The notes under the pieces were generated by a model. It had not been told where the DNA came from. It did no database searches and saw nothing but the letters and a program-made list of their open reading frames with translations. DNA of 64,000 bases from Malacoraja senta (Eukaryota): the NCBI GenBank assembly GCA_038087875.1, contig CM075990.1, forward strand, positions 5,148,001 through 5,212,000, in the 5' to 3' direction. Of the stretch, positions 1 through 64,000 are shown one piece after another. The position numbers and the translations under genes were made by a program. Positions within the stretch are counted from its first letter, which is position 1; the number at the start of each line of letters is the position of its first letter.

Positions 1-2568
1 AATAGGTGACTTTTCGGGTCGAGATCTTTATTTCACGACCAAAAACGTCACAGATTCCTTATCTCCGGTGATGCTGCCAGACCCGCCGAGTTACTCCAGC
101 ATATTGAGTCTGTCTTTAAACCAGCATCTGCTGTTCCTCCCTACATACTGAACCTCACTGTAGCTCGATACATGTGATAAATAAAGTACCATTCGACCAT
201 TGATCAGTTGCCCCACACACGCCACGCTGCACGGCCGATCAGGTCCATGTAGAGAAGTCTGTGGTGGGAAGTCACACCCACCCAGTGTCCTTCTACAGAC
301 AGTAAAACATGCAGCTACTTATTCCCGTGTGGGGAGGAAAAAACGTGCATGCAACGCATAGTGTGACGGAGACTCTGCCGAATGGGAATTTATTGCAATA
401 TGTAAATCCGTTGTAACTTTGATACCACTCTATGTATTTAAACTGTGGATCTCTCGTGTTGTGTTTTCCGTGCAGTTGGTGACTTGTGAGGCAATTTTCC
501 CCTATTGCAGATATCTGCTTCGCATTAGACCCAAAAAGCTGGGAGTAACCCAGCGGGTCAGGCAGCATCTCTGGAGACAATGAATAGGTGACGTTTCGGG
601 TGGAGACCCTTCTTCAGACAGAAACATCACCTATTTCCTTTTCACCAGAGACGCTGCCTGTCCCCGCTGAGTTACTCCAACACGTTGTGTCTATCTTCGG
701 TTTGAACCAGCATCTGCAGTTGCTATCTACACATTTTGGCCGCTTCGAAGCATTTATAGCTCCTCATCCTATGTACGTGGTTAAGTGGGTTTTGACGAAA
801 TGACCTTAACTGTTATGATAGTTCTTCCATCTTATTTACATTAATTTTATGCACGTAAATATTTCTGCACATAATTTCGATGTGCGCCTTTGTTATGAGC
901 CTTTAACTATATATTCGATCCGTAATCGTTCAAGGTGTTCTTACTCCACGTGTACGCGTTTGCCAATGTATATTGATTTTGCACTCAGTCCCCCTGTATT
1001 TTTCTCTCTCAGGATCAGCGGTCGCCATCTATTGTACATCATTGTTTATGTTCTCGACCGTGGTCGTTGTATAACCAGCCACCGTGTTCCGCCGTATTTG
1101 TTCCCTTTGTATGTTCAATCTGAATGTGTATTTGGACACCAAGTGCTGGAGTAACTCAGCGGGTCCGGCAGCATCTCTGGGCCACATGGAGAGGTGATGT
1201 TTCTGGTCGAGACCCTTCTTCAGGCTCATTCCCAACCCGAAACATCACCTATCCATGTTCGGACCGCGTCGAAACCCTTCTTCAGAAGTCAAAAGAAGGG
1301 TTTCGACCCGAAACGTTGCCTATTTCCTTCGCTCCATAGATGCTGCCTCACCTGCTGAGTTTCTCCAGCATTTTTGTCTACCTTCGATTTTCCAGCATCT
1401 GCAGTTCCTTCTTAAACACCTATCCCATGTTCTCCTGAGATGCCGCCTGACTCGCTAAGTCAACAATGGACCATTGTGAGCTCCACCTTCTTTCGGTCAT
1501 AGGTACCTTTGCGTACCTCTAGTTTCCCTCTCCCCTGACTCAGTCAGAAGAAGGGTCTCGACGCGAAACATCGCCCATTTCCTTCTCTCCAGCATGAGCA
1601 TCTGCAGTTCTTTCCTCCGTTAAATGTCTATATATTATTTATCCAGTGTTTATATGTATATTCAGCGTGCACACGTTTACTTTGTATTTATGCACACTGT
1701 ACATTTCGTTTATCCATTGAGCTTTTATTTATTCGCAGCTGCACATTTATTCCACAGGTTCTTTAATGTATTAATTGTGAGCGCATGTATTCTGCACAGA
1801 TTTCCACCAGCTCAAATTCCACTCGTAGGAGTTCGTGGATGCCTCGTAGCGGCTCGTACGAGTAAAAAGTTACATTTTTTTTCATCACGAGTATTTTTTA
1901 CTCGTGGACATTTTTCACAGTGTTGAAAAAACGTCACGAGTTTACCGGATTTCCCAAGTACCTACCGTTATTCGTACGAGCCGCTACGAGACATCCACGA
2001 ACTCCTACAGACCCGCTACGGACATTCTCCGAGTTCGAATCAGGGGAAAAACTCGGAGAACTCTTGAATTAACCTCGTACAGTGGGACAGGCCCTTAAGC
2101 GCTCAACCAAAAAAACCAAGTCCAAAGCCAAAGTATATGCGGACAAATAACATATTGAAAAAAACGCCGCGACCTAGCTGAGGCCCTCGAGTACGCGGAG
2201 ACCACTTTCGAGCATGAAGGAGAGTTACGAAGACCTCTACGACCTCGTGTCGACCATGCTGTGAGTATGAGTCGAGGGCAAACTCGCCAGAAATTGCGGA
2301 TTAGGTCACCCAAGTGGGACAGCCTGCATATGCAATAATCAGCTACCTACATGGTACCAATCACATGATAGTCACAAAATGCTGGAGTAACTCAACGGGA
2401 CAGGCAGCATCTCTGGATAGAAGGAATGGATGATGTTTCGGGTCCAGACCCTTCTTTAGACTCCTGACCAACCAGTCTGAAGAAGGGTTCAACCCGAAAT
2501 GTCGCCCATTCCTTCTGTTCAGAGATGCTGCCTGTCCCCGCTGAGTTACTCCAGCATTTTGTGCCTAT

Positions 2569-4309: not shown

Positions 4310-4342
4310 GTCTGAAGAAGGGTCTCGACCCGAAACGTCACC
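4310..4342 (+). ncRNA. Minimal type-I hammerhead ribozyme motif in a Penelope-like pLTR (representative intact copy)
   Basis: gt-CTGAAGA-a-GGGTC tc GACCC-GAAAC-GTC-ac: conserved core, helix II hairpin, vestigial palindromic (ACGT) helix III; predicted cut after 4339. Other intact copies on the minus strand at 4863-4894, 6070-6102, 23019-23051, 23181-23213 and 41083-41115. Confidence 0.75.
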
Positions 4343-4800: not shown

Positions 4801-5253
4801 CGTACACAAAAATGCTGGAGAAACTCAGCGGGTGCAGCAGCATCTATGGAGCGAAGGAAATAGGTAACGTTTCGGGCCGAAACCCTTCTTCAGACTGATA
4901 GGGGGTGGGAGAAGAAAGGAAAAAGGAAAAGGAGGAGGAGGAGCCCGAGGGCTGGGGAGGGGAGGAGACAACCAGATGGCTGATGGAGGGGAGGGACAGC
5001 CAGGGCTAGCAGAATTGGGAGAATTCAACGTTCAGGCCACCAGGATGTAGACTGCCCAAGCGGAATATGAGGTGCATTTCCTCCAATTTACGGTGTTGCT
5101 CGCTGTGGCCATGGAGGAGACCCAGGACAGAGAGGTCAGATACGGAATGGAGGGGAGTGAAGTGCTGAGCCACCGGGAGTTCAGGTTGGTTATTGCGACC
5201 GACCGGAGGTGTTCGGCGAAACGATCGCCAAGCCTCCGCTTGGTCTCACCGAC
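4801..5253 (-). mobile_element. Penelope-like element 3' fragment: GIY-YIG endonuclease C-terminus plus pLTR with hammerhead
   Basis: Minus-strand translation (frameshifted) VGETKRRLGDRFAEHLRSV..NNQPELPVAQHF...DLSVLGLLHGHSEQHRKLEEMHLIFRLGSLHPGGLNVEFSQFC*, then a pyrimidine tract and the CTGAAGAAGGGTTTCGGCCCGAAAC repeat. This links the ubiquitous short repeat to Penelope-like elements. Confidence 0.88.
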
Positions 5254-6404
5254 AGCTCCTCGGACAGCGGCTCTTCCTTCTCACCGTTTTCTTCGCTCGG
5301 TTTCCAAATGGAAATTAACCGCCAGATTTCCCTACACAACACTCAATGGATCCGCGAGCAATTACAACGATTATAATTGAGGGAATGTGTTCAGCTTTAT
5401 ATTGAATTTAGATTCTCTCATCTGCTCGTAAAACTGCTCGCGTTGTTTTTAGAAAGATTGGATAATCCGCGGGCGACCGTGGCCCTGATTCACTTTCCTT
5501 GGAGCTTAGGTGCTCGCGAATAAATAGTTCTCTAGCTGTAAGTAAAGTGTTGGCTGGATTCAGCCTGAAGACAATGTGTATAGAATGATTTCAAAAACGT
5601 TTTGAGCTCCCCGCGGTCACGGTGCAACTGAGACACAATTACAAATTCCGGTGATGTTGTATTGAGGCAAACGCCACCAGGAATAGGGACAGTCAGACAC
5701 AAGGAACTGCAGAAGCAGGATTCTTGAGCAAAACACAAAGTGCCGAGGAACTCAGCGGGCCAGGCAGCATCTGCGGTTGGATGGGCAGGGACGTCCGGAT
5801 CAGGACCCTTCAGAATGAAGAAGTCAGAAACGTTTCCCTCCACAGATGCTGCCTGACCCGCTGAGTTCCTCCAGTACTCTCGTTTTTTTCCGCCACACGG
5901 ACTAGTGTTCGGAGTGGCGCTGCGTGTTGTGTGTTGGCTGCACATTGTAGGTGGTTTAGCGAGGATAAGGAAGCACCCGTTGTCCTTGGGAGGGCGACAG
6001 TAATGATTCAAGTGCGAAGATGCTGGAGTAACTCAGCGGGACAGGCAGCATCTCTGGAGAGAAGGAATAGGTGACGTTTCGGGTCGAGACCCTTCTTCAG
6101 ACTGAGAGTCAGGGAAGAGGAAGACACAGAGACAAGGAAGGGCAAGGTGTGAAAACGAGGCATCAAAGAAGATGTGAATCAAGGAAAATGTATTATAGGT
6201 CATTGTTAGCTAGGAGATGGTGACAAGGAAGCATACAGAAATAACATGTAATCAGTGGGAAACTCAGACTGGTAGGAGAACTAGGAAGGAGGAGGAATGG
6301 AGAGAGAGGGAAAGCAAGGGTTACTTGAAGCTTGAGAAGTCCTGACCCACTGAGTTACTCCAGCATTTTGTGTCTATCTTCAATATTCATACTGCTGGGG
6401 TGTA

Positions 6405-7964: not shown

Positions 7965-8110
7965 CCAGTGCGACTGCCTCCTGCACCCATGCAGAACTCA
8001 TGGACTTTATTAACCACCACCAACTTCCACCCTGCCCTCAAATTCACCTGGACTATCTCAGACACTTCCCACCCCTTTCTTGATCTCACCATCTCCACCA
8101 CAGGAGATCA
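7965..8110 (+). pseudogene. Penelope-like reverse transcriptase fragment
   Basis: ATASCTHAELMDFIN / TTNFHPALKFTWTISDTSHPFLDLTISTTGD (frameshifted), the PLE RT region after the YxDD motif, followed by a pLTR remnant. Confidence 0.75.
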
Positions 8111-8994
8111 GATAGACGAATAAAAGGTCCCAAGAAGGGTTCCGACCTGAAACGTCACCTATTTCTTTTCTCTTGAGATGCTGCCTAACTCCAGCACTTT
8201 GTGATTATGACGTGTGTGTGTGATACTGTTTGAAGATTTTCATTGTACATGTAGCTCACCGTACTTGTGCATAGGACAATAAACACATCAACTTGAACTC
8301 CCAGGATTTATTTTAGGAAAATGCAGTGGGTGGCACTGCTTCCTTGCTTCCTCACAGCACCAGAGACCCAGGTTAGATCCTGACTATGGGTGCTGTCTGT
8401 GCAGAGTTTGCACGTTCTCCCTGTGATCATATGGGTTTTCTCTGGGTGCTCTGATTTCCTCCATCATTCCAAAGACATGCAGGTTTGTAGGTTAATTCAG
8501 GGCCGGCCTTAAGCCGATTGGACCGATTGCTCCCAATTGGGCCCCACGCTTAAGGGGGCCCCGCGTCAGAGTAATCTACTCTCGGCTCAGGTGGATGTAC
8601 CCCGGGTGGAGGGGGGTGAGAGGGGTGGAGAGAGAGTACAGTGGTGGAGGGGGAAGAAAATGGTAGAAGGGGAGGGGGCGTGAGGGGGAATGGAGAAGGG
8701 GTAGAGGTAGAGGGGGAATGGAGAAGGGGGAGAGGGGGAATGGAGAGGGGGGAGAGGGGGAGGTGGGTCGTTCCCTCACGGTCCCGGGGCAGCGCTCCCG
8801 CCCCTCCAGTCGCCGTGCTTCACGCACACAGCCCAGGCTCCACCCCTCTCTACCCCTCTTTCTCTCCCTGGGGAGATGCGGTGAACAATACAGGGAGGGC
8901 CGGGCCGGGCCGGGGGTTGGAGCAACGTTTACAAACCTTCGCCTCAGCTCACACCCGTCCGCCCGGACCCCGGCATCTGCTCCCGCCGCCGGCC

Positions 8995-12232: not shown

Positions 12233-15200
12233 GTTTTTTCCAGTCAATGGTTAACATTTTTCAGGGGAGATGGACAAATTCGCAGCATTCTTAGAAGTAT
12301 ATTTAACAACATTTAGGGACCAGGAATTGGAATGTATGGAGGGTAGGACAAAGGCTTTATTATATGGGTTGAAGTGCATTGGCCAGCAGAATGACATTAG
12401 AACCCACCTGAAAGAAAGTACCGCAGGTGCAGGAGGTGTGAAATAAAATCAGAAAAGATAGTGTAGATCATTAGAACTTTTCCCCAGCGTGTGGGGACCG
12501 CTGTGAGAACAATGGAGGGCCCGGCTTGGGAAGGGGGGGGGGGGGAAATGGGGGGGGACTCTAGTTTTAGAATCCTCTGCTCAAGGAATAAGCCTGCGTT
12601 CGTTTGTTTGTTCGTTCCGGTTAAAGGGCCTGTCCCACTTGGGCGTCATTTGCACGTCATTTACATGATATCATTTACACATCATTACGCATGCATGGTG
12701 AGTGGTGAGACGTGGTGGCGTAGGCAGGATTTTGGGTTTCACAAGATCTTCGCGCGCCACCTGCGTGACGCGCCAATGACACCCGTGGGATAGGCCCTTA
12801 AGGCGCTGTGCACACGACAGCCTGCCAACAGTTACTTGTCATTTTCTTCTTTATTCGCTTTTAATTTTATTTTAATTTCAACTTTTCGTGTATCTTGTTG
12901 TGGGTTAGGACTGTTGACAGACCAATTTCCCTCCGGAGATGAATAGAGTTCTATCGCATCATATCAAAAGATTTGAAGGGACAAGGTTAAGGTGAGAGAG
13001 GTAGAGTTTAAAGATGGAGCAGTATTTTCTACACAGAGAGTAGTGGGTGCCTGGAGCGTTGCCAGGGGTGGTGGTGGAGGCAGACACAAGAGTGACATTT
13101 ATGAGGCTTTTAAATAGATACATGGGTATGCAGGGAATGGAGGGATATGCATTGTGTGCCGGTAGATGAGATTAGTTTAACTTGGCATTATGTTCAGCAC
13201 AGACTTTGTGGGCTGAAGGACTTGTCATGTGCGATATTGTTCTATGTTCCATGTTCTGTCTAAAAATCAGTAATTGCTCAACAGAGCTTTCCTACCAGAA
13301 GCTTTCATCAGAGTTGCAAAATATTCCTGTTGCAACAAGTTTTAAACAAAGGTGGAAAGTGGTGGGAAGTTGCGCTGTGGAGAGAGAAACAGAATGTGGG
13401 GCCAGCAGAAACACTACAACAACTGCGTTCATATATAAACTCATAGAGTCATACAGCATGGAAACAGGCCCTTTGGCCCAACTTGTCTATGCAGATCAAC
13501 AATCCCCATCTAAGCTGGTCCCATTTGCTGCCATTGTACCTATACAATTGTCTTTTTAATGCTGTTATCGTACCTGCCTCAACTACCTCCTCTGGCAGCT
13601 TGTTCCATGTACCCACCACCCCCTACACAATGGGCACTGGAAACTTCGAATGAAGATAGGAAATGCTGGAAGTACTCAGCAGGCAGTAAGCATTGATTAA
13701 TAAAAACAAAGATAACATCTCATGTTACAGTGGTGCAGCTGGTAGAGCTGCCGCTGATGTCTGTGAGGAATTTGTACATGAGGTTTTTTTTGGATGCTCT
13801 AATTTCCCAAAGACCTGCGGATCGGTAGGCTGTTTGGCCCTACAAATTGCTCGCAGGTTGTAGATGTGGTGGAATTTGAGGAGAATATGTGATAATTTAT
13901 TAAATATGTGTGGTTGGTATAAATGGTGTTGGTGTAGGAAGGAACTGCAGATGTTGGTTTAAACCGAAGATAGACACAAAAAGCTGGGGTAACCCAGCGG
14001 GACAGGCAGTATCTCGGGAGAGAAGGAATGGGTGACGTTTTGGGTCAAGACTCTTCTTCAGACTTCAGACAAATGGTGTTTGATGGTTTTGCAGACTCAG
14101 TGGGCTGAAGGGCCTGTTTCTGTGTAGGATATCTCTATTTCTAAATCAGTTGACTTTGGAAGGCTGCTATGTGCTATCGGCATCTGTATCTGCACCAGCA
14201 TCTACAGTTCCAACATACACATGTCATGTGCTATCTGGCACGAGCTGTGGGCAGGGAAGTCTGTTGGGGTCGGTCTGACAATGTAAATAACAATGCAAAC
14301 GTGTGGAGTCAGGCTTGTGAAGAGTAAGGAGTTGATCTGTAGAGTGGTCACACAATGTAAGTGGCAATGGCAGCATAAACGCTTGCGAAGTATGGAGGAT
14401 GACAAAAATACAGATATATCTCAGATTAATCTGGGGGGTCTACATGGATCCCATTCCACCATCCCAATAGTCGATACAAAATCATCTTATACCATGGGCT
14501 CCAAGGCTGTGCCTTGACTGGGCTTTCCTTACTCTTGGTAATTGGTCTTAAGGGCCAGTCCCACTTGGCCGTCATTTACGCGTAACTTACGCGACATCAT
14601 TTACGCGTCACAACGCACGACGCGCGCGTTGTGACACGCACGTGATGCGCGCATGGGACGCCTTACACGCGCATGGTGCATGGTGACGTAGGCAGTGACG
14701 CGCGTTAGTGCCCGGCTCCCCAGGATTTTGGTATGTACAAAATCTTCGCGCGCCATCTGCGTGACGCGCAAATGACGGCCAAGTGGGACAGGCCCTGTTC
14801 CAGGAGACTTGGGTTTGGGGTGACTGGAGGTGGGGATGTGGTGAGGATAATGGGATTGGTTACGTTGTGAATAGCTTCCCCACTCTATGACGAGAGGTAC
14901 CAGCAACTTATTTCCAGTCCCTTGACTTTTGGCTCCTTTTCCCTGAGAGAGGTTGCATGAGATTGTTCCAAAGAGCAGGCGTCATCTCGTAATGCCCTGG
15001 CCTAGTCTAGTTCAGTCTATGTCACTCAGTACATTCTGACTGTTATACCCTCGCCAACTGTGGGAGTGTTTTCACCATGTATTATAATTAATATAACACT
15101 TTGGTTTTTGGGAGTCCAGCACCTTAGGATATCCTGGGGTCGTGAGTGCTGATAACAAATGCATGGTTTTACTGAAGAGAGACTCAAAAAGCTGGAGTAA

Positions 15201-17040
15201 CTCAACGGGACAGCCCGCATCCCTGGAGAGAAGTAATGGGTGACGTTTCAGGTCGAGACCCTTCCTCAGACTGAGTGTAAGGGGAGAGGAAGACACAGAG
15301 ATAAGGAATGGTAAGGTGTGAAAACGTGACATCAAAGGAGATGTGGGTTAATGAAAATGTAAGAAAGGGTGACAACGAAGCATACAGAGATAAAACATAA
15401 TCAGGGGGACAGTCAGACTGGTCAGAGAACTAGGAAGGGGGAGCAATGGAGAGAGTGGGAAAGCAAGGGTTACTTGAAGTTAGAGAAGTCCTGTCCTGTT
15501 GAGTTACTCCAGCATTTTGTGTCTATCAATAAATATTCATATTGTTGGGGTGTTAGCTGCCCAAGCGAAATAAGATTCACGTGTGTTGTGCTTTACTAGA
15601 GTCACAGAGAAGAAGGGTCTCGACACAAAACGTCACCCATTCCTTTTCTCCAGAGATGCTGCATGACCCGCAGAGTCACTACAGCTTTTTGTGTCTATCT
15701 TCTGATGTGCTTCACGTTCCATTGACTTTCCTGCCACACCTTCTCTTCTTGCTCAACGGTCGCATTAGAGTTTCTTCCTTCCCAGGCTCTCCATGGATGG
15801 GGCAGTAGCTGAAATAAAGATCAGGCAACAAGGACAGTGAGGGGGAGCGGGTCCCATTGATTGCACATCCCGTGAGTTGGGACCATCGCAAACATACTTT
15901 ACCAAGGGAAGGTACAAGATGCTGGAGTAGCTCCGCGGGTCAAGCAGCATCTCAGGAGAACATGGACAGGTGACGGGTCGGGTCGGGCCCTTCTTCAGAC
16001 TGAGGCCTTATTTCAGCAGACACCTTACCATTGTATCCACAGGCTTATACCTCAATGAGTTCTGGGCACACCATGACGTGGAGCCTCTGTCTACAGGCAT
16101 TTTTTGCTGGTTAAGACTCATTGCAGTCCAGTGACGGCCCCATCTCCCGTCACCAACTTCATGGACCTCTCCCCCTTGCCGGCCTTCGACCCTCTCTGGA
16201 TCTTTTTACTAGCTACATTTCACCAATGAGCCCAAGCTGCACATAAATCCCAGATGTCTCCACATGGCGGTGCTGTTTCCCTCTGTACGCTCCAACTGTT
16301 TGGTTTTGAGGGCAAGGAATTTATTGTTACGTCCACTAGATGGAGATTGGTCTCTATAGCTCTCCACGCTGGCTGTTGTGGGGGGTCACATGGGTGGCAG
16401 TCAGCAAGTGACCAGAAAAGGAACATTTAAGGGAATAAAACGAACTGTTGATAAATTCAAGATAGACAAAGCCTGGCAAGTGATAGGTGTGTAAAGGTGA
16501 AGGGGGTTGTGACCAGCAGATGGGTGGACGATGGCTGGAGGTGGAAAGAAGACAAAAAGGCATTAGATAAACCGAGAATCGGAGTGAAGTGTAAAGGCAG
16601 AGGGAGGGATATTGGTGGAAGAGGATGGGAATGAAAGAGGGACAAGATAGTGGGAAGAATGGGTGCGCACCTGGTGGGGGCACAGGAAAGATAGAAGGGG
16701 AAAGGGAACTATTATTTAAAATTGGAGAATTCCATGTTCATGCCGTTGTGAGCTACCCAAACAGAATATGGGGCGCTGTTCCTCTAGTTTGCGTGAAGTC
16801 TCACTTGAGCCAGTGACCCCGACGCAAACTAGAGGAACAGCACCATATATTTAGTTTGGGTAGCTTACAACCCAACGGTGTGAACATTGAAACATAGAAA
16901 CATAGAAAATAGGTGCAGGAGTAGGCCATTCGGCCCCTCGAGCCAGCAATATGATAATGGCTGATCATCCGAAATCAGTGCCCCGTTCCTGCTTTCTCCC
17001 CATATCCCTTGATTCCGTTAAGCCTAAGAGCTATATCTAA

Positions 17041-17263: not shown

Positions 17264-17412
17264 TAACTCTACCTTGAATACATGGTATTGAATTCAATAC
17301 CAGCTTATCTGTGAAAAACAGAGGCACTGTGTACACTGCATATGAAAGCGAAGATGTTGCAGAGATGACATTGAAGCAAACTCATGTGACTGAGGTACGT
17401 TGCTGTTGCCGT

Positions 17413-21320: not shown

Positions 21321-23535
21321 CCAGCAGCCACTACCCACTGGCCACATCACGCCAGCAACACCTGACCGCCTCCGTTCCAGGAAGAAATGAATGACTTCCC
21401 GTCGGTTTGTGCCAGTTGGTTCCTATTTGCTGAGCCGCATCAGACAAGCCGCTGCCTGCCTGCAATTGGCCGCGTATCCATCAGGAGCTGTGGCGCCTTC
21501 CCCCGGCCGCAGTGAATGGAGAGAGAGAGTGAGGGAGGGAGGGAGGGAGGGAGGGAGAGTGAGAGAGAGAGAGGGAGAGGGAGAGGGAGAGGGAGAGGGA
21601 GGGAGAGAGGGAGGGAGAGAGGGGGCAGAGCACGATGACCCACAGTAACCCGGCCAGGGAGGCTGATGCAACGCTGTGACTGAGCCGGCAAGAGTGCACG
21701 TACACCCCGCTCTTGTACACAGCTCACACACACATCATGTGGGGAAATAACATCACCAGGCCAAACTGGTGAGGTGAGGAATGTGTCATCCTGGCCGCAG
21801 TCATTTAAATAATTGCCCATTACACATCGCACCACCGTTTTCTACTTTCAGGGCGGATCTCAGTCAGAGGAAAAGTTACAGAATTAACCAGCGAAACACA
21901 ACGTGCAGGATGACACACAGGGAACTGCAGGTGCTGGGATCTTCAGTAAAGCACAAAGTGCTGGAGTAACTCAGCCAGTCTCTCTCTCACTGCCCTTCCC
22001 TCTGTGATTCCGGCTCTCCCTCCCACCCTGTTCTGCCCCAGATTTGCCACTGCGGCCACCTGCGTTTCTACCTGTCCATTCGCCCCACAAATGCTGCCTG
22101 ACCTGCTGAGTTACTCCAGCACATGGGTTTGACTCAAGTACTGGAGGAACTCAGCAAGTCAGGCAGCAACAGGGGAGGGAATAGACGGGTGATATTTTGG
22201 GCCAGGAAAAAAAAAAGTCACAAAGTGCTGGAGCGACTCAGTGGGTCAAGCAGCATCTCTGGAGAACATGGATAGGTGATGTTTGGGGTGTGATGCTTCT
22301 GACCTCCCTTCCATCGAGGGGATCTATCGCAGTCGCTGCCTCAAAAAGGCTGGCAGCATCATCAAGGACCCACACCATCCTGGCCACACACTCATCTCCC
22401 TACTACCTTCAGGTAGAAGGTACAGGAGCCTGAAGACTGCAACGACCAGGTTCAGAAATAGCTACTTCCCCACAGCCATCAGGCTATTAAACTTGGCTCG
22501 GACAAAACTATGAACATTAATAGCCCATTATCTGTTATTTGCACTTTATCAGTCTATTTATTCATGTGTGTGTATATATTTATATACTGGTATATGGACA
22601 CACTGATCTGTTCTGTGGTCAATGCCTACTATGTTCTGTTGTGCTGAAGTAAAGCAAGAATTTCATTGTCCTATCTGGGACACATGACAATAAACTCTCT
22701 TGACTTGACGTCTTCAGACTGTCTGAAGAAGTGTCCCAACCTGAGACGTCACCTATCCATGTTATGCTTCTACACTGGGGTTTGGTTATTGTCTGTTACT
22801 GTGACTGAGCTTCAAGTAGACCCCGGTCGAATGAATTATTGGGTCCGTGTGTGCCCCTGTGTGGGTTTGTGCTTGCAGTATATGGGGCACTTGTTATAGG
22901 CCAATCTGTCTGTCCACATGTGCAGGAAGGAACTGCAGATGCAGGCTTACACCGATGATAGACACAAAATGCTGGAGTAACTCAGCGAGACAGACAGCAT
23001 CACTGGGGAAAATAAATAGGTGACGTTTCGGGTCGAGACCCTTCTTCAGACACCGTCTGAATTCCCTATTTCTTTTCTCCAGAGATGGCTCGACTGTAAT
23101 CATGTATTGTCTTTCCACTGTAGACAGAAATGCTAGAGAAACTCAGCGAGTAAGGCAGCATCTGTGGAGCGAAGGAAATGGGCAACGTTTCGGGCCGAAA
23201 CCCTTCTTCAGACTGATGTGAGGGTGGGGGGGGGGGGGGGGGGGAGGGAAATAAGAAAGGAAGAGGAGGAGCCAGTGGGCTGAGGGAGAGCTGGGAAGGG
23301 GAGGAGAAAGTAAGGACTACCTGAAATTAGAGAAGTCAATGTTCATACCGTTGGGGTCTTTCCACTGACTGGTTAGCACACAACAAAAGCTATTCACTGT
23401 ACCTCGGTACACGTGACAATAAAATGAAGTGAAGTGAAGTGACCCGCTGAGCCACTCCAGCATGGTGTGTCTATCTGGTTGTCCACATTTGTGGCTATCA
23501 GAGGATGGGGATACTGGAGAATGAATCTAGACAAT

Positions 23536-23601
23536 GGCCCCATAGCAGAAGCGTCCACGTCGCGGGGCTGGAATCTGGAAGTATCCTGAGCTAATTCTGC
23601 T
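23536..23601 (+). ncRNA. HDV-like self-cleaving ribozyme (double pseudoknot)
   Basis: P1 GGCCCC/GGGGCT (G1.U wobble); P2 AGCAGAA/TTCTGCT; P3 GCG/CGC; L3 TCCACGT; P1.1 CC/GG; P4 TCTGGA-agta-TCCTGA (one mismatch); J4/2 G-C-T-A-A with the catalytic C at 23591. Confidence 0.85.
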
Positions 23602-23729
23602 GCCTCCATCATCTACTGCCACAAGTGATGGCTTCCACTGATTGTCGCCGGAAGCTTGCGTCCTTTTCAGGACGGACAATGACAGCGAGGCCAACATTTG
23701 TAACAAGATGGACATGAAAAGAAGAAGAA
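23536..23729 (+). mobile_element. Short non-autonomous retroelement (RTE-like 3' end) headed by an HDV-like ribozyme
   Basis: TSD GAATCTAGACA at 23523-23533 and 23730-23740; (GAA)n tail; 3' end reads EANICNKMDMKRRR, reminiscent of RTE-clade ORF ends; no tRNA A/B boxes seen. Confidence 0.75.
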
Positions 23730-24996
23730 GAATCTAGACATGATTCAGATAATCCCCGTTATATGTAAAACCTGATCTACAAATCCATGGCTTCTTCTAA
23801 TTAGGTTCTCATCATGCTCTGCTTGGTGTTATTTGCTGACGTTGTGAAAACATCCCAGTACAAGAGCAAAATCAGAGGGGGGGGGGGTTATGATACGATA
23901 GAATTTTATTTATCCCAGGAGGGAAATTGATCTGCCAACAGTCATAAAAAACACAAAATACATGAAACATGAAATTAAAGTGACGAGTGGGAAGGCTTGG
24001 GGGATGTGCAAAGATTGAGGGGGGGTGGGGGGGGGGTGTGGAGAGGGGTGTCACTCAGTCTACCCCATAGCAGAAGGGGGAGGAGTTGTAGGATGCAGTT
24101 GAGTTGAAGGGCGAGAGGTTAGCTAAAATTGACGACTTCAATGTTCTTACCATTGGGTTGTTAGCTGTCCAAGTGGAATCTGAGGAGCTGTTCTTCCAAT
24201 TTGCATGTATCCTCACTCTAGCAATGGAGGAGGTCCAGGACGGAAAAGCCAGTGTGGGAATGGGAATGGGAATTAAAATGGGGGAGGCTGCTGCCTCACA
24301 TAGATATTACATATCTTCCAGTAAATTCAACACAGTCATTGCCCATTTATATTATGTCATAGATCATGCTGTACAGGGACAGGCCCTTCAGCCCATCAAG
24401 TCTGTGCCGAGCATTATCCGCCCATTTACCTTAATCCTACGCTCATGCTGTTTTATTCTTCCCATCAGTTCTCTCAGTTTCCACCACTCATTACAGTTAA
24501 TCTGCAGTGGTCAACTAACCTGCCAACCAAAATAGACACAAAGTGCCAATGTTTTCCAGGGATGCTGCCTGACTTGTCGAGTTCCCCAAGCAATTTGGGT
24601 CTTTTTTACTAAAACAGCGTCTACAGTTCCTTGTTTCTACAATCTGCCAACCACATGCCTTTGGAATATAGTACGGAGTATATCGGAGCAAGATCAGGAC
24701 CGAACCCGGGTCGCTGCAGTTGAGAAGCAGCAGCTCTAATTGTGTATCTCTGTGCCGCCCATGTATTATCCTAGAACATCTTGGAACAGTACCGTAGCTG
24801 GCAGAGCTGCTTCCTCACGGCACCATAGACCCGGACCTCGGGTAATGTCTGTGTGGAGTTTGCACATCCTCCCTGAGATTGTGTGGGTTTCCTCCAGGTG
24901 CTCAGGTTTCCTCCCACATCCAAAAGGATAATTGGGCTCTGTAAACTGTCCCGATTGTGTAGGGAGTGGATGAGAAAGTAGGATAACATAGAACCA

Positions 24997-31031: not shown

Positions 31032-32164
31032 TCACATTTACCAAGCCAATTAACCTTGCAAACCTGTACGTCTTATGAGATGTGCGAGGAAACTTAAGAT
31101 CCCGGAGAAAACCCACGCAGGTCACGGGGAGAACGTACAAACTCCGTACAGACAGCACCCGTAGTCAGGATCGAACCCGGGTCTCTGGCGCTGCATTCGC
31201 TGTAAGGCAGCAACTCTACCGCTGGTTGGTATAATCCATTTGCACTTTGCAAAGCTCTACTTCCTCCAGAGGTTACTGAAAGTCATTGCATTGACACAGG
31301 GATGGTTGCGGGAGGCTGGGACATGTCTATGCAGGAGTAAAGGAAGGGGAAAAGAGGAGAGGATTAACATACTGTACAAGCTGGTGCACAAACAGTCAAA
31401 AACCTGGCTGCTTGTGGATTCAATGCCCACTTGGAAAAGCAGAGGAAACTGAGTCATTCCGAAAGCTGCTGCTTCCTTGGTTTAGAAATACCAGCGTAAA
31501 GAAGGGCAGACTTGCACTTGTAGGCAGCTGAGCATCACAACTGCACACTTGTTTACAGTCAATTAAGTGATGCTGAATTTGAGTCACTGTAGTAACCCTT
31601 GGAAAAGGAGAAGCCATGCTTGGCACAGCAAGGTAGCCCAATCCGAATACAATGGGGAACAAATAATGTGTAGGTCGGAACTGCAGATGCTGGTTTACAT
31701 TCAAATACTGTCAAATACAGTGAGATGTAAATATTGACCAGGATACAGTGCATGCCCTACTGCCCTGCATGGAATTGACAATTGTTTCGCAAGGTGGACC
31801 TGTTCCATGCTTGGCGTGGTTGTCCGTTACCTGACTATTCACGTGCACAAGGGTTGTATGTCTACACCCAGTTAAGACAAGAGCAGATCTAACATCTACA
31901 TAACATTCAGCGTCGAATGGGGAGGCTGAACGATTGGTGAAGTATAGAAGGTCAGTGAAAAGCTTTTGTTCTTGCTATCCAGTCAGCAGCAAGACAATAC
32001 ATGATTACAATCAAGCCATTTACAGTGCATATGTAACGGCAGCCAGTCGACAAGGGATCCAAATGGGTCTTGAGGCACTATTTCTGCTTACTCCAGAAGC
32101 AGTCCATGGAGGCATGCTGAAGGGTTAATGTTAATGGGCACAGCTTGGTATAACTTTAAAATAG

Positions 32165-32562
32165 TAACTCAGCGGGACAGGCAGCATCTCTAGAGAGAAG
32201 GAATGGGTGACGTTTCGGATCGAGACCCTTCCTAGTTCGGGAAAAGGGAATCGAGAGATAAAGAACAATGAATGAAAGAGTTGCAAAAAAGTAACAAGGA
32301 TTAAGTAAACAGGCTGTTTGTTGGGTGAAAATGAGAAGCTGGTGCGACTTGGGTGGGGGTGGGATACAGAGAGAGGGAATGCCGGGGTTACTGGAAGTTA
32401 GAGAAATCAATATTCATACCACTGGGCTGTAAGCTGCCCAAGCAAAATATGAGATGCTGTTCCTCCAATTTGCATGTAGCCTCACTCTGACAATGGAGGA
32501 GACCTAGGACAGAAAGGTCTTTGTGCGAATGGGAAGGAGAATTGAAGTGTTTAGCAACCGGG
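32165..32562 (-). mobile_element. Penelope-like 3' fragment (GIY-YIG end plus pLTR)
   Basis: Same architecture as 4801-5253 (...KLEEQHLIFCLGSLQPSGMNIDFSNFQ*). Further remnants near 6020-6400, 15180-15580, 16715-16890 (with an inversion), 23120-23357 and 24130-24285. Confidence 0.8.
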
Positions 32563-34968
32563 TATAGCTTTACTTGGACGGGGAGCAGGAGGATCAGGAG
32601 AGGTGTCAGAATGGGTATCTCTCCCTCTCAACCCCATTTTCTTGCCTTCTCCCCATAACCCCTGACGCCTGTACTAATCACAAATCTATCAATTGCCACC
32701 GTGAAAATATCCATTGACTTGAGTGTGTGATGTGCAAGATGAGCCAGGATATGACTGACCGACTGACCTGATATATGTTGTAGCCATCACTGGACAGGGC
32801 TCAATGAGAGGATGACACAGCCCACACGAGGATGTGGCCGCAGGAATAGAGGGCAAGTGAAGTGGACATCTCAGGTACAACAAATGCATCGTTAAATTGA
32901 GGAGATCGGAGAGGAAATATATTGATTAAAGTTATAGTTTAATTTAGCGATACAGCACAGAAACAGGCCCTACGGCCCAGCGAGTCTGCAGCAACCAGTG
33001 ATCACCCCGTACATTAGCATCATCTTACACACGAGGGACAATTTACAGTCTTTACCAAAGCCAACTAACCTACAAACCTGTATGCCTTTGGTGTGTGGGA
33101 GGAAACCTGAACACCCAGAGAAAACCCATGCAGTCACGGGCAGAAGGTACAAACTTCATACAGACAGCCCCTGTAGTCAGGATTGAACCCGGGTCTTTGG
33201 CGCTGTAAGGCAGCAACTCTACCGCTGCGCCACCTTGTCGAGTTGTTGCTGCATATGCTTGTCAAAAGTCACATGTGTAAGTTGTTTCCATCGGTTTCCT
33301 TTTGCCTTTTTAGAGGATGCAGAGTGGTGCATATAGATTGTGTAAGGAGATATTTATCGGAGTGTTATTGTGTGGGATGACTTTAATACTTTGTCCTATG
33401 TTGCTGTTTAGGAGAGAGTTCACCAGGTTCAGCAAAGGCAGCTCTGTGGGTGAATCCATCTCCATTATTTGTCTTTGCAAGTGGCAACTCTGGCCTGTGG
33501 AAAGCAGGAACAAATGTTGCCCATATTCCAAGAATAAGGAAAACATTGTCTTGTGTTTTGTACTTTGTGGGAGGTTAGAGAGAGATACAGCAGGGAAACA
33601 GGCCATGCAGCCCACCAAGGCCTCCCTGACCATCAACCAAAGGATTCATACTTACCATACTCTAACCTCAATTTTTTTTTACCCCCCCCCTCCCCCAATT
33701 TCAATCATTTACCTACATATAGGGGACTATTTACAAAAGCCAACTAACTTCCCAACCTAGGTAGACTCAAAATGCCAGAGTAACTCAACGGGTCAGGCAG
33801 CATATCGGGAGAAAAGGAATAGGTGATATTTTGGGTTGGGACCCTTCTTCAGACCGGGATGGGATGCAAGGCCACTGGGCTGATCTGTAGTCAGGGTCAA
33901 ACTTCTCAATCTGCACGTTTTTGGCATGTGGAAGGAAATCAGAGCACCAAGTGAAAAAACAACGCTCTCACAGGGAGAACATCCAAACTCCACACAAACA
34001 GAGGTCAGGATAGAACCCTGGCCTCTGGTGCTGTGAGGCAGTGACTCTACCGGCTGCACCACTGTGCCACCCACATCCAGTCTGGTCCAAATGCAGAGAT
34101 CGTTCTTTCAGTCTTATTGATGCAGCTGACAGCCTATGAAGGTTCAAGAAGGCACCATCACACGCTTTGAAGAACACTGTTATCATATCCAAATACATTA
34201 TTAATAGAGTCTTGGGAGTTCTAGCTCTGCTCACATGAGCTCCACTGGGAAGCGTGCAAGTGTTGGGTGAGGTCTGGATGGTACCTTCATGATCAGATGG
34301 CAGCCAGTGCTCCAGTCCAAGGTTTGGCCCCAGGGATGGGATGGTGGGCCACTGGACTGATCTGTAGTCAGGGTCATTTCCTTCATAGCTGGAGACACGG
34401 GGACTTCAATGAGTTTTACTGAGTTGGGCCACCCTAGGATGGAAAGGTTTTACATTCGCTGAGCTCAGCTGCTGCATTAGACAAGTAGCGGGAATAACAC
34501 AACAAGCTTGCCCGAGAGACAATCTAGCATCACCTCTGGACTCAGTAGCATAGCAACCAATCTCTAATCGCTTAGTGCTTTAACTTAGGGATTTATTCAC
34601 AGAGAAGCAGGATTTGATGCTCAGCAACACTGCCTCACACTCTCTCCTGAATGTGCTTTACATCCATGCTTCTGCCAACCTGCTCAAATTGATTAGGAAT
34701 TCTGCCTCTTCGCGCTAATTCCAAATATTGATTGATTCATTATTGTCACATGTACATGCTACAGTGAAATTCTTTGTTTTGCATACAATACACACTGAAC
34801 ACCTGGCACGGCGGTAGAGTTGCTGCTTTACAGCGGCAGAGTCCCGGGTTCGATCCTGACTATGGGTGCCGTTCGTACATAGATACATAGAAAATAGGTG
34901 CAGGAGTAGGCCATTCGGCCCTTCGAGCCTGCACCGCCATTCAATATGATCATGGCTGATCATCCAAC

Positions 34969-37903: not shown

Positions 37904-38082
37904 TTTACACCCCTCTGTTTCTCTGCTCACCCATTTAAGAACCCCACCACCTCTTATTCTCTGTTTATTATTGTTTTCTTCTTTCCCCCCTACATGTTGG
38001 GTCTGAGTGCTTTCCTTCTCTGCCTCCTGTCTCACACACTGTCTAATAGCTTTCTCTATTTGAGTCCCTCCCCCCAACCGTT

Positions 38083-39894: not shown

Positions 39895-41018
39895 TTCTCC
39901 CTGTGACCGCATGGGTTTTCTCAGAGATCTTCGGTTTCCACCCACAAACCAAAGACATACAGGTTTGAAGGTTAATTGGCTTGGCATAGCCATAAATTGT
40001 CCCAAGTGTGTGTGTGAGAGAGATAGTGTTAATGTGCGGGGATCGCTGGTCGGTGCGGACTCGGTGGGCTGAAGAGCCTGTTTCCGCGCTGCATCTCTAA
40101 AACGAAGATAGACATAAAATGCTGGAGTAACTCAGCGGGACGGGCAGCATCTCTGGAGAGAAGGAATGGGTGACGTTTCGGGTCAAGATCCTTCTTTCGT
40201 CCCGATGGCCCCTCTTCCTTCTCACCCGCCTTCCCCCACTTTAATTGATATGTTAAATTGCCCGTAATGTGCAGGGAGTGGATGTGAAAGTGGGATAACA
40301 TAGAACTGGTGTGAATGGGTGATCGATGGACTTGGTGGGCTGAAGGGCCTGTTTCCATGCTGTATCTCTAAAGTAAAACTCTTATCCCTTCCTCATAGTT
40401 TTCTGCTCACGGCCTGATCACAGGAGCTAAAAGCATAGATGAAGCATTCATGAGAAACTTTTGAAAGGGATTTGGTTCTTTGTTTTTGAAAAATAAATAT
40501 CTGCAGGCCCAAGGGAAGGGGAAATGTGGAAATGGGTAATTGGGCAACTGGAGATGTTGCAGGGCCACTCATCACTCTATGCTGTGACTCTATTAACTTG
40601 CTTTTGAACTTAGGCTTTGGACATTCGACATGAGTGCATCATTTGTGTATCTATGGAACTGTTGAGTGTTTGCTGTGGCCACAATCAACAATCCAGGAAT
40701 TCACAGTGTCCAAAAACACACTCCTTGCTAAAATTAAATAGAAAGTCTCTGTGAAGCAATTAAATCATAGAGGATGTTTGATATTTTCTTCAATTTTTTT
40801 GCCTTTAAACAACATATTTAAGATGGTAACTTGGAGCAGACTACATGTTCAGCACACAAATAAGTTTTTTTTAAAATCTGAGATTTTTTGTGGCTATTTT
40901 AGAGATAGAGTGTGGAAACCGAGTCCGCACCGACCAGCGATCCCCGCACACTAACGCTATTCTCCAAACACTAGGGACAATTTACAATTTTACCGAAGCC
41001 AATTAATCTACAAACCTG

Positions 41019-41235
41019 AAGGTACACAAAAATGCTGGAGAAACTCAGCGGGCGCAGCAGCATCTATGGAGCGAAGGAAATAGGTAACGTTTCGGGCCGA
41101 AACCCTTCTTCAGACTTCTCGGCCCGAAACGTTACCTATTTCCTTCGCTCCATAGATGCTGCTGCGCCCGCTGAGTTTCTCCAGCATTTTTGTGTACCTT
41201 CGATTTTCCAGCATCTGCAGTTCCTTCTTTAACAC
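41019..41235. mobile_element. Palindromic non-coding Penelope pLTR insertion with a 16-bp TSD
   Basis: Inverted pLTR plus direct pLTR with near-perfect ~80 bp arms; TTAATCTACAAACCTG duplicated at 41003-41018 and 41236-41251; inserted within a SINE. Confidence 0.85.
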
Positions 41236-61242: not shown

Positions 61243-64000
61243 GAGAGTGTTAATGTGCAGGGATTGCTGGTCCGAGCGGACTCGGTGAACCGAAGGGCCT
61301 GCTTCCGCGCTGGATCTCCAAATTAAACTCTACAATCCCCACGATACAATATCTTCATTGTACTTACACCACACCGCACTTGCGCACATGAAAATGAACT
61401 CAACTTGGCTGTTCACGTGAAACAAAGCAGCAACTGGAAATTATGCAACATCTTTAACCTACTCAAATTCCCCAAGGCACATGACAAAAAAAAAAGCTGC
61501 ATCATACAAAAGAAAACTGTGCCCCAGAATGATGGATGACTAAAAGTGCAATCAAAGCTGGATTTTATGCATCATCGTAAACAGAAAGGAGTCAGGGAAA
61601 ATGGACGAGGGAAGAAATTCCAGACATAAACAATGGAGCCAGATCTGGAGGTGGAATACAAACAGGAGTTGCGTCTTAAGGACAAATTAAGTTTAAAACA
61701 GAGTAGCCAGCATTATATTTTTGGAGAATAACAAGGGTTTATAATGAATTGTGGTATGTGCATGCTTTCTTTGCAGCTATTACAGGTGTGTAATTCCCAA
61801 CAGCAACCAGAAAAATTATAATGGAAGTATGACACAGGAGGACGCCATTCGGCCCATCGTGACACTGCTGGTTGATAGCCCGATCTCATTTTCAGCTGTA
61901 GGCCCACAGCCCAGCAGATCACAACTCTCCAAATACAATACAATGTGATAAAGCTACCGGGAGTGTCTACCACACTTTGCGAGAAAATAAATTGTCCTTG
62001 TGCCTCCTCTAAACCTCTCAATTCTTTCAAAACGTACTTTGTCTAGTTTTTGATCCCTTTTGCTGAAGGAAAGAGTGGTAAATGGGAGGGACATACTAGG
62101 CCTCCCCTCGAATTTATGCACCTCAAGTTCCCATCATCGGTGTCCCCATGGCAACAATGAACCTTGACATCATGGTGAATTTCCTCTGCCTTCTCTTTTC
62201 CTACCTTCCTAAACTCTTTTCTAAAGTCACACCTTTCCTATAATGTGGTGACCAGTTACATGAGATATTCAAGCTGGGATCTAGTCAGTCTGGAACACAG
62301 CTCCAGCACAATCACCCTACTGTGTCTCAGTAAACAAAAGTAAACCATCCCATAAGCATTTTAAATTTAGTTCATAAGTTCCAGGAGCAGAACTAGGCCA
62401 TTCGGCCCATCAAGTTGACTACGCCATTCATTCTTGGCCGATCTATCTTTCCCTCTCAAACCTATACTCCTGCCTTCGCCCCATAACCACCAGCACCTTT
62501 TCTAAGCAAGAATCTGTCAAACTCTGCCTTTAAAATATCCATTGACTTGGCCCCCACAGCCGTCTATGGCATTGAATTCCACGGATTGACCAACCTCTGA
62601 CTAAATAAATTCCTTCTCATCGCCTTTCTAAAGGTATGTCCTTTTATTCTGTGTGAATGTAGTGAACTTGGAGTGGTTGTAGCCTCCAAGGTCATTTTCA
62701 CTCCCCCACCCACACCATCGAGCCAATTATTCTGCATCGCCTTGTTGCTCCTCCAGGATCCCATGGACATCCACATTATTTGACCAGTCTGCCGTGGAAC
62801 CTTGCCAAAAATTAGAAATATATAACATTCATGAATCACAGAACACAATGTCCTTCTCATTATCTGCTCAAAAAGACAACCAGTCAGACATAACTCCTCC
62901 CCCCCCCCCCGAAATCCACAGAGAGTATTGTCAATTTAGCTGAGCATTCCTAAATAAAGAAGATAGGCACAAAATGCTGGAGCAACTCTGTGGGTCGGGC
63001 AGCATCTCTGGAGAAAAGGAATAGTTGACGGTTCAGGTCTCGACCCTTCTTCTGAAGATGGGTCTCAATCCAAAAATGCATCCATTCTTTTTCTCTAGAG
63101 ATGCTGCCTGACCCGCTGAGTTACTCCAGCATTTGGTGCCTATCTTCAGTGTAAACCAGCATTTGCAGTTCCTTCCTACACATTTCCCAAATAAAAGTTG
63201 ATTCTGGACCCGCAGAATGGATTCCAATAATCAGCCCACTGGTGAAGTTAATCCAAACGGCCATGCAATTCTTATTTATCCATTGCGTCTATTTTAAACA
63301 GTTTATGAGCACTCCCACACTCCTCTGGCACCTCACATGCAGCCAAAGAGGATTGAAAAAAAAGGCAAGGCCCCATAATTTTCTTGTGCTTTTAAAGAAA
63401 CAGTCTGGGATACATTTCAAGCAAGCCTGTGATTTATCCACCTTCTAAAATGCCAACTGTTTAACATTTCATCTTTTATGTTTGTACATCCAATATTTAG
63501 AAATCATTTTGCCTTAATGGCTAGACAACCACTGTCCTCTTTTTCCACAAGATACTCAAATAACTGTACCCACATCCACTGTGTTCACTTGCAGGTCATC
63601 TTTGGCTCTTAAGTCCTCTCTAGTTAGTCACCTTAACTTTTGCAATTAAAATTACTTTGATCTTGACCTGTTTTTCCTATTTTCCTTTTTAATTGCACAA
63701 TGACATAACCTTTCATTTTACACAGAACCTTATCCTCATGCATTTAGCCATGCACGGGAGTCTAGGTTTGCCAGTTACACACTTTTCCTTTTTGTAAATT
63801 TTCCCCACAATCTCTCAAATCCCCTTCTTAAAACCATCCTCTTGCTTTCAAGTTGCTGTTCCTAGTTCAGCAATGCCAAATCACTTTGGTCCAATAAAAC
63901 TACTCTTCCTGCAGTCTGGAAGCTCTGTTCGTTCCCATTTTATATTTGTCCTCTCCCATGACCATGTTCAATCTAATGGAAATGCAGCCACTACTACACA

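What the first reader, a model, noticed from the sequence alone, without database searches (positions are those of the whole stretch)
1..63190. The commonest short repeat in the window carries a hammerhead ribozyme (Penelope pLTR), at more than one copy per 2 kb
Seen: roughly 35-45 copies (by eye) of CTGAAGAA-GGGTCTCGACCC-GAAAC-GTC on both strands. A second subfamily (GGGTTTCGGCCC...GAAACGTT) keeps helix II paired. The repeat is physically joined to GIY-YIG coding remnants (about 5005-5253 and 32385-32562). Known: Penelope-like elements carry minimal type-I hammerheads with a vestigial palindromic helix III that cleave mainly as dimers. Inference: extrapolated genome-wide this would be a very large ribozyme-motif load; many copies have lost the ACGT palindrome through CpG decay.
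Basis: partly seen in the sequence, partly recalled or inferred. Interest (0 to 1): 0.72.

Follow-up and report, generated by a model that had tools for sequence, protein, structure and literature searches.

The report
Penelope hammerhead repeat in skate genome
The commonest short repeat in this skate-like DNA is the cut-off end of a Penelope-type jumping gene and carries a stripped-down hammerhead ribozyme motif of a known kind; most copies are broken and the rest are predicted to misfold, so it is likely a very large but mostly silent load of ribozyme motifs.

Summary
Confirmed in kind, weaker in degree. A ~135-nt repeat gives 64 profile hits (0 in the reversed control). 35 span the hammerhead region (1 per 1.8 kb), but only 8 keep a complete minimal type I motif (0 in 100 shuffles). 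It is the pLTR end of a Neptune-type Penelope element. GIY-YIG remnants lie 116 and 145 nt upstream on the same strand. There are two 3' ends 33-38 nt apart (the PLE tail) and 18 head-to-head pairs. The same core in other animals' PLEs has a covarying helix I. This variant differs: helix I is 2 bp, and helix II is predicted to be outcompeted in 7 of 8 complete copies. 23 of 30 copies stop within 5 nt upstream of the core and only 2 of 64 start at the cut site, so the copied RNA was likely uncleaved. No cleavage was tested. Known class (Cervera 2014), new variant, about 125 complete motifs per Mb if the window is typical. Side finding, possibly more interesting: a CPEB3-like HDV ribozyme (Rfam 42.5 bits, 23536-23601) forms the 5' end of another dispersed repeat, although CPEB3 is reported only from mammals.

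The parts
590..617 (-). Complete minimal hammerhead motif (subfamily A), inside a head-to-head inverted pair 507-723
4312..4339 (+). Complete minimal hammerhead motif (A); unit with long 3' tail runs 4310-~4443
4866..4893 (-). Complete motif (subfamily B, GUU triplet), 116 nt downstream of the GIY-YIG remnant; 1.5% from the copy at 41086, so young
4894..5008 (-). PLE 3' UTR: pyrimidine tract ending in CAG-T directly before the core; possible retained intron end or start site (inferred)
5009..5253 (-). GIY-YIG endonuclease C-terminal remnant, frameshift near 5197
   Evidence: E 9e-25 and 7e-7
6017..6385 (-). Longer derivative: inverted pLTR piece, last ORF codons, ~230-nt 3' UTR, complete motif at 6073-6100; same junction as 15157-15529
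   Evidence: 80% identity over 301 nt upstream
8016..8209 (+). PLE RT-thumb-like remnant (8016-8120) joined directly to a decayed motif copy (8127-8209)
15157..15529 (-). Second copy of the longer derivative; complete motif at 15242-15269
16817..16918 (+). GIY-YIG C-terminal fragment with no motif copy next to it
23022..23049 (-). Complete motif (A); 162 nt downstream of the B motif at 23184, the only same-strand pair of complete motifs in the window
23184..23211 (-). Complete motif (B), with 3' UTR and last ORF codons up to ~23355
23536..23730 (+). Separate element (side finding): HDV-like, CPEB3-like ribozyme 23536-23601 at the 5' end of a ~195-nt dispersed repeat with (AAG)n tail and ~11-nt target-site duplication
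24122..24280 (-). GIY-YIG C-terminal fragment with no motif copy next to it
32163..32567 (-). GIY-YIG remnant (32382-32567), 145-nt 3' UTR and a motif copy with broken CUGA box (32163-32237)
41015..41225 (.). Head-to-head inverted pair with identical arms (B); complete motif 41086-41113(-) sequestered in a predicted -178 kcal/mol hairpin; tail on one arm only
34..63173 (.). All 64 profile hits of the repeat, 5796 bases, 18 head-to-head pairs

Best explanation
The repeat is the truncated pLTR end of a Penelope-like (GIY-YIG, likely Neptune-clade) retrotransposon and carries a minimal type I hammerhead motif that likely cleaves only with help in the source element and is likely inert in the scattered copies. 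Shown: motif, ORF linkage, two 3' ends, inverted pairs, 5' ends clustered at the motif's 5' edge, CpG decay. Inferred, by analogy with the Anolis PLE: the element's protein nicks AT-rich DNA on one or both strands and starts reverse transcription at two sites ~35 nt apart at the pLTR end, giving the tail and the head-to-head pairs. It then copies through the uncleaved (or re-ligated) ribozyme and mostly stops or jumps at the motif's 5' edge. Inferred: the core is kept by selection on source elements. A 2-bp helix I and a competing hairpin with the sequence just after the cut site keep it off unless protein binding or a second motif (ACGU:ACGU helix III) remodels it. After insertion, copies decay neutrally.
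For: GIY-YIG remnants 116 and 145 nt upstream on the same strand. In 31 outside motif/ORF-end pairings the spacing is 69-150 nt. Homologues carry the CX4CxxC linker and PLE RT pieces, the Neptune/Nematis mark in Craig et al.. Two 3' ends in the window and in contigs of 4 runs. 11 of 18 inverted pairs have the tail on exactly one arm. Same core skeleton in 131 matches from 126 outside loci with unrelated flanks; helix I, not set by the search, averages 3.2 bp vs 1.6 +/- 0.12 shuffled over 64 distinct flank pairs. Core purines diverge less than tail purines, 3 of 166 vs 57 of 527 (ascertainment caveat). 23 of 30 copies end within 5 nt upstream of C3 and 2 of 64 start at the cut site. P(helix II) > 0.5 in 1 of 8 window motifs vs 92% of 105 outside motifs. 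In the Anolis PLE the hammerhead needs protein and uncut RNA is the main template (PMC11167929).
Against: No cleavage, RNA end or expression was observed; only contigs were available. Subfamily-level core conservation is not significant by itself (0 of 11 vs 16 of 63). Pfam does not call the window remnants (0 of 3), and 7 of 10 homologues hit GIY-YIG only below the cut-off. No full-length element or RT core lies in the window. 5 of 18 inverted pairs have no tail and 2 have two. Folding predictions ignore tertiary contacts, Mg2+ and co-transcriptional folding.
Confidence: 0.7

Rival explanations
1. The motif descends from a hammerhead but no longer cleaves in this lineage; the core is kept as a protein-binding, start-site or reverse-transcription signal.
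For: Helix I is 2 bp in 8 of 8. Helix II is predicted unformed. The double-hammerhead fold of the natural pair lies 19.7 kcal/mol above the MFE. Copy ends avoid the cut site. Cervera 2014 leave non-catalytic roles open; Naiad PLEs spread without hammerheads.
Against: All 11 catalytic positions, the bulged A, the G10.1-C11.1 pair and the ACGU palindrome are unchanged in three subfamily majorities. A 2-bp helix I also occurs in D. virilis Penelope. Protein-assisted cleavage is shown for the Anolis PLE.
Confidence: 0.17
2. The repeat works as a retrozyme-like unit: tandem copies cleave as dimers, give small circular RNAs and cut host transcripts at many loci.
For: Head-to-tail joints with units of 87-94, 133 and 37 nt exist in contigs of related organisms; the palindrome needed for dimers is intact in 21 of 35; one same-strand pair of complete motifs lies 162 nt apart.
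Against: Tandem joints lie at the 5' edge of the motif, as expected for ordinary PLE partial tandems. In the window the main arrangement is inverted (18 pairs), which buries the motif in long hairpins where the arms overlap it. Published minimal PLE motifs cleave weakly even as dimers; 8 of 9 Xenopus dimers showed no cleavage.
Confidence: 0.1
3. The repeat is an unrelated SINE and the hammerhead pattern is chance.
For: Rfam finds no hammerhead in the window at gathering or E<=10 thresholds.
Against: Rfam also finds none in 15 of 15 outside loci with the same core, so the blank is uninformative. ORF linkage, tail and inversions are PLE marks. 0 descriptor hits in 100 shuffles.
Confidence: 0.03

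Closest known systems
Minimal type I hammerheads of metazoan Penelope-like elements (Cervera and de la Pena 2014, PMC4209133)
   Same: Conserved core, unpaired nucleotide before helix II, G10.1-C11.1 pair, palindromic vestigial helix III, place in the pLTR, mostly single dispersed truncated copies.
   Different: Helix I 2 bp (4-5 bp in Schistosoma; mean 3.2 in my outside set), helix II 4 bp plus tetraloop and predicted outcompeted; density about 125 complete motifs per Mb in this window against 4,000 (coelacanth) and 9,000 (Xenopus) per genome; no cartilaginous fish named in the parts I read.
Anolis Poseidon element PAc (Frangieh et al. 2024, PMC11167929)
   Same: Two RT start sites giving a 30-40-nt tail; both-strand priming would explain head-to-head pairs; genomic copies span the uncut site.
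   Different: PAc is Poseidon clade with the ORF start inside the ribozyme; the homologues here carry the Neptune/Nematis zinc-knuckle linker; no activity tested here.
Drosophila virilis Penelope hammerhead (PMC4209133; Schostak 2008, PMC2377424)
   Same: 2-bp helix I; a 3' splice-site-like signal (pyrimidine tract + CAG) right at the 5' edge of helix I in 6 long copies.
   Different: Splicing is shown in Drosophila and untested here; with the candidate donor at the ORF stop, splicing would not lengthen helix I.
Non-LTR retrozymes (PMC7229834; bioRxiv 10.64898/2026.07.22.740005)
   Same: Non-coding, PLE-derived, type I hammerhead, very high copy number; some tandem units exist in related genomes.
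   Different: Retrozymes are 150-450-nt tandem arrays, typically with canonical active motifs; here copies are mostly solo or inverted, with a minimal motif.

Membership tests
Penelope-like element (EN+) | C-terminal GIY-YIG endonuclease ending just upstream of the pLTR motif | tested here: met
   remnants 116 and 145 nt upstream, same strand; Pfam itself gives no hit on the fragments
Penelope-like element (EN+) | Telomerase-like RT in one ORF with the endonuclease | tested here: inconclusive
   Only a 35-codon thumb-like piece at 8016-8120 (E 1e-6 and 5e-8); homologues P0010 and P0016 join such RT pieces to the GIY-YIG; no full ORF found
Penelope-like element (EN+) | 30-40-nt tail, usually at one end of the insertion | tested here: met
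   (ends 33-38 nt apart); 11 of 18 pairs with one tail
Penelope-like element (EN+) | 5'-truncated copies in tandem or inverted arrangement | tested here: met
   18 head-to-head pairs; tandem joints in contigs
Penelope-like element (EN+) | Retained spliceosomal intron in the pLTR (some members) | tested here: inconclusive
   Pyrimidine tract + CAG before the core in 6 long copies, GT at the ORF stop, variable length between; no RNA data
Neptune clade | CX2-5CxxC linker between RT and endonuclease; RT phylogeny | tested here: inconclusive
   Linker seen in homologues P0007, P0013, P0014, P0017, P0018, not covered by the window remnants; shared with Nematis; no tree built
Minimal type I hammerhead | CUGANGA, GAAA and UH boxes | tested here: met
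   14 of 35 copies and all 3 subfamily majorities
Minimal type I hammerhead | Helix II with bulged 5' nucleotide and G10.1-C11.1 | tested here: met
   Pairing possible in 8 of 8 complete copies, but predicted P>0.5 in only 1 of 8
Minimal type I hammerhead | Palindromic vestigial helix III | tested here: met
   ACGT in 21 of 35
Minimal type I hammerhead | Helix I of about 4-5 bp | tested here: not met
   2 bp in 8 of 8, none with 3 bp or more; a 2-bp variant is on record for D. virilis, hence variant rather than typical member
Minimal type I hammerhead | Self-cleavage as dimer or with protein | not testable with these tools
   No raw RNA reads offered
Non-LTR retrozyme | Two or more consecutive tandem units each with a complete motif | tested here: not met
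   None in the window; tandem joints exist in related genomes, but completeness of both motifs was not shown
HDV-like ribozyme (side finding) | P1 with G1-U wobble, P2, P3, L3, P1.1, catalytic C in J4/2 | tested here: met
   P1 6 bp (7 is usual, recalled), P2 6 bp, P3 3 bp, L3 7 nt, GG for P1.1, C in J4/2; Rfam RF00622 42.5 bits over gathering 35
CPEB3 ribozyme (side finding) | Single copy in intron 2 of CPEB3 | tested here: not met
   It heads a dispersed repeat with tail and target-site duplication; no CPEB3 exon among 122 ORFs scanned

The most novel reading that the evidence does not exclude
Skates carry on the order of 10^5 complete hammerhead motifs, the densest ribozyme-motif load described in a genome. 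They are held off by a built-in anti-core hairpin and a 2-bp helix I, and switched on by the Penelope protein, by tandem partners or by splicing at the acceptor that abuts helix I, so that Penelope expression could cut host transcripts at many loci. Separately (my odds about 0.4), the HDV-like ribozyme heading the neighbouring dispersed repeat shares ancestry with the mammalian CPEB3 ribozyme, which would then be a domesticated retroelement end.
Probability: 0.12. Interest if true: 0.78.

Novelty: new variant of a known kind. Interest (0 to 1): 0.45.

Why it matters
Penelope hammerheads are known, but their role is open. This family has a very short helix I, a predicted off-fold and thousands of natural insertion ends, so it can test whether cleavage matters for transposition: copy 5' ends avoid the cut site here, whereas contig pieces of the HDV-ribozyme repeat 300 nt away start at its cut site. 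If the window is typical, the motif density is some 10-30 times published values, and Rfam misses it. The CPEB3-like ribozyme on a mobile element would supply the outgroup that Bendixsen et al. 2021 state is lacking, and a possible origin for a ribozyme tied to memory.

Tried and rejected
No whole genome is held, so no direct genome-wide count. The exact skate 28-mer pattern has 0 matches in metagenome and viral contigs; the CPEB3-like 19-mer has 0 in viral contigs and no second copy in the window. No RNA holder listed and no raw reads; run X15 is probably DNA. Rfam hammerhead models: no hit in the window, uninformative because 15 of 15 outside loci also give none; the miRNA-family hits are far below gathering and mostly sit on inverted pairs. 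The first subfamily split failed to separate B and was redone; I use only its CpG and arm-identity counts. A longer helix I from splicing or from inverted arms was sought by eye in upstream sequences and not found. Strand or gene bias: 7 of 8 complete motifs are on the minus strand and none lies in the desaturase gene region (~47.9-64 kb); too few to interpret. MFE folding of the HDV-like motif is uninformative (z -0.06; pseudoknot). No tRNA called. Earlier findings of this scan: none. Lunse et al. 2016 on PLE hammerhead dimers is not held (title seen in a reference list only) and may already cover 2-bp or shark variants. Supplement file 1 of PMC4209133 could not be searched, bioRxiv supplements are closed, and Repbase/Dfam were not available: any of these may list this family.
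Full report
Source. The window is vertebrate DNA full of retroelement remnants. It holds exons of a fatty-acid desaturase on the minus strand at about 60.1, 53.6 and 48.0 kb (Pfam FA_desaturase E 9e-4). The named relatives of one endonuclease remnant are proteins of Leucoraja, Rhinoraja and Amblyraja, 5 of 20 hits, so I infer a skate or close batoid. No whole genome is held.

Observation. An iterated profile of the unit gives 64 hits, 0 in the reversed window. It is the most numerous short family: 64 hits and 5796 bases against 32 hits and 5715 bases for the next. 35 of 64 hits span the hammerhead region; 14 keep the 11 catalytic positions plus H17, and 8 also keep ACGT and helix II. A structure descriptor written without the repeat's sequence finds the same 8 and none in 100 dinucleotide shuffles; all 8 have a 2-bp helix I. 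CpG decay removes the palindrome's CG in 12 of the 14 copies that lost it, and G12 is lost in 9 of 35.

Penelope identity. A profile from 14 public homologues, window rows left out, finds GIY-YIG C-terminal remnants at 5009-5253(-), 32382-32567(-), 24122-24280(-) and 16817-16918(+), none in the reversed control. tblastn adds an RT-thumb-like piece at 8016-8120. The first two remnants end 116 and 145 nt upstream of a motif copy; the other two have no copy beside them. Three further copies keep only the last ORF codons (by eye). Pfam does not call the fragments and hits 7 of 10 homologues below its cut-off. Several homologues show the CX4CxxC linker that Craig et al. give for Neptune and Nematis (passages); Li et al. 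2026 found only Neptune and Poseidon in vertebrates, hence likely Neptune. The unit has two 3' ends (model ends 93-105 and 118-121+). There are 18 head-to-head pairs, 11 with the tail on one arm, 5 on none, 2 on both; these are the marks described by Craig et al. Arms differ by 0 to 20% in five pairs checked, so insertion spans a long time and subfamily B is young.

Related genomes. Laying 22900-23760 on contigs of four runs placed 205,940-225,629 contigs from three runs and 21,301 from the fourth. In the three large runs, summed depth over the motif bin was 1.7-2.5 x 10^7 against 3-67 in the unique bin. The tool states that this is no copy number, so I take it only as showing a genome-wide family in organisms A, B and E. 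Loose ends with AT-rich, unrelated flanks lie at 22957 and 22924-22926, and tandem joints also use 22919: the tail again. The largest listed loose end in each run is at 23051, the 5' edge of helix I (453-3086 contigs, agreement 0.33-0.38). This is partly forced because the window copy ends there. Head-to-tail joints start at the same place, with units of 87-94, 133 and 37 nt. Only 24 of 3541 loose ends, 15 of 1871 joints and 40 of 105 variant rows were shown, so per-position variation in the core could not be read.

Is it a hammerhead? Helix I was not part of the pattern, yet 64 distinct flank pairs average 3.2 bp against 1.59 +/- 0.12 in 2000 shuffles (maximum 2.0), with several pair types at each place (relatedness not corrected). 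38 loci hit the GIY-YIG profile, and 31 same-strand C-termini lie 69-150 nt upstream. So the skeleton is a PLE hammerhead across animals, and the skate form is at its short end: 24 of 128 outside matches have <=2 bp. Within the window three subfamily majorities differ at 0 of 11 core, 1 of 8 helix II (to U-G), 2 of 4 loop and 16 of 63 tail positions, the last inflated by one indel; this is not significant alone. Per copy, non-CpG core purines diverge in 3 of 166 cells against 57 of 527 in the tail (p 1e-4), but the stricter 3'-core-only comparison gives p 0.16, and local alignment favours intact cores.

Does it work? Not tested. Predictions go against unaided activity. With 12-nt flanks helix II has P>0.5 in 1 of 8 window motifs against 92% of 105 outside motifs, because the 5' strand of helix II pairs with the bases just after the cut site. 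The double-hammerhead fold of the only natural same-strand pair is 19.7 kcal/mol above the MFE. Inverted pairs fold into hairpins of -115 to -178 kcal/mol (4 folded). The copies record their templates. Of 30 copies reaching C3, 20 end within 4 nt upstream, 3 more after 5 nt, 1 after about 17 nt, and 6 run on into the 3' UTR; 2 of 64 hits start at the cut site. The RNA that was copied therefore had the site intact or re-ligated (inference). This matches the Anolis element, where cleavage needs protein, is dispensable for insertion, and no RNA ends map to the site (PMC11167929, parts 1-2 of 4 read), and the low activity in PMC4209133 (parts 1-2 of 4 read). Why ends cluster at the motif's edge is open. 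The six long copies have a pyrimidine tract and CAG right there, as the Drosophila intron end abuts helix I, and the same bases fit an initiator consensus (recalled, not from a call). An RT jump at the structure is a third option.

Comparison and novelty. The class is published. Listed loads are about 4,000 (coelacanth) and 9,000 (Xenopus) minimal motifs, >6,000 in a coral and up to 120,000 retrozyme copies in the axolotl (passages; genome 28 Gb). Eight per 64 kb is 125 per Mb; over a genome of about 2 Gb (recalled) that would be some 250,000, an extrapolation from one gene-proximal window. Penelope expansion is noted for whale shark (passages), and one chondrichthyan had retrozymes (bioRxiv 10.64898/2026.07.22.740005, parts 1-3 of 5). 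Searches for Penelope + cartilaginous + hammerhead ribozyme (0 papers), Penelope + skate + Leucoraja (1 unrelated) and Penelope + elasmobranch + SINE (3) showed no description of this motif; the library lacks most subscription papers and repeat databases. Verdict: new variant of a known kind.

Side finding. The only Rfam hit at gathering level is RF00622 CPEB3 ribozyme, 23524-23601(+), 42.5 bits, E 4.6e-8. It has P1 (6 bp, G-U at the cut site 23536), P2, P3, a 7-nt L3, GG for P1.1 and the J4/2 C. The element ends ~195 nt later in an (AAG)n run and is flanked by an ~11-nt duplication. In one search it is a dispersed repeat (summed depth 1.5-8 x 10^5 in three runs), and 13 of the 19 listed contig pieces on it begin at 23531-23539, 9 of them at 23535-23536. 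So here the 5' end is the ribozyme cut site, unlike the hammerhead repeat. HDV-like ribozymes at the 5' ends of RTE and other retroelements are known (passages of PMC6765202); RTE assignment here rests on the recalled tail type only. [quoted passage not shown] Common descent versus convergence is undecided; I give about 0.4.

Other papers seen as passages only: PMC2377424, PMC5499810, PMC11979771, bioRxiv 10.1101/2022.09.22.508989.

Noticed in passing
window 23536-23730 (+): CPEB3-like HDV ribozyme (Rfam RF00622, 42.5 bits, above gathering) at the 5' end of a ~195-nt dispersed repeat with (AAG)n tail and ~11-nt target-site duplication; contig pieces from four runs start at the predicted cut site. 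CPEB3 ribozyme is reported only from mammals. Deserves its own follow-up.
   Followed up: partly
window ~47900-60110 (-): Three exons of a stearoyl-CoA-desaturase-like gene (about 59940-60100, ~53450-53700, ~48050); 14 repeat hits lie at 48185-63173, none with a complete motif.
   Followed up: partly
window 6017-6385 and 15157-15529: Two copies share the same junction between an inverted pLTR piece and the last ORF codons, so the inverted form was likely itself copied as a ~370-nt non-autonomous unit.
   Followed up: partly
window 4894-5010, 6101-6345, 15270-15490, 23212-23325: 3' UTRs of 110-235 nt differ freely between subfamilies but begin with GT at the ORF stop and end in a pyrimidine tract plus CAG: intron-like.
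   Followed up: partly
window 8016-8209 (+): RT-thumb-like piece joined straight to a motif copy, skipping the endonuclease and 3' UTR.
   Followed up: no
window 41015-41225, 41711-41910, 62952-63173, 507-723: Inverted pairs would form 100-bp RNA hairpins if transcribed; possible dsRNA or small-RNA source. Rfam miRNA models hit some such pairs weakly.
   Followed up: no
window 35041-39006 (-): Near-complete CR1-type LINE with GDSL-lipase-like ORF1 (Pfam E 2e-12) and long ORF2 frames.
   Followed up: no
window 28810-29854 (-) and 57315-58121: Tc1/Sleeping Beauty-like transposase remnants (Pfam HTH_SB, HTH_Tnp_Tc3_2, DDE_3 for the first).
   Followed up: no
L123, L125, L126 (genome contigs): Bacterial MAG contigs holding the animal-type PLE hammerhead; L125 and L126 also hit the GIY-YIG profile, likely host DNA in the bins.
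   Followed up: no
L001-L122 (metagenome contigs): Many further PLE hammerhead families with covarying 3-6-bp helix I, all missed by Rfam in the 15 loci tested; material for a new covariance model.
   Followed up: partly
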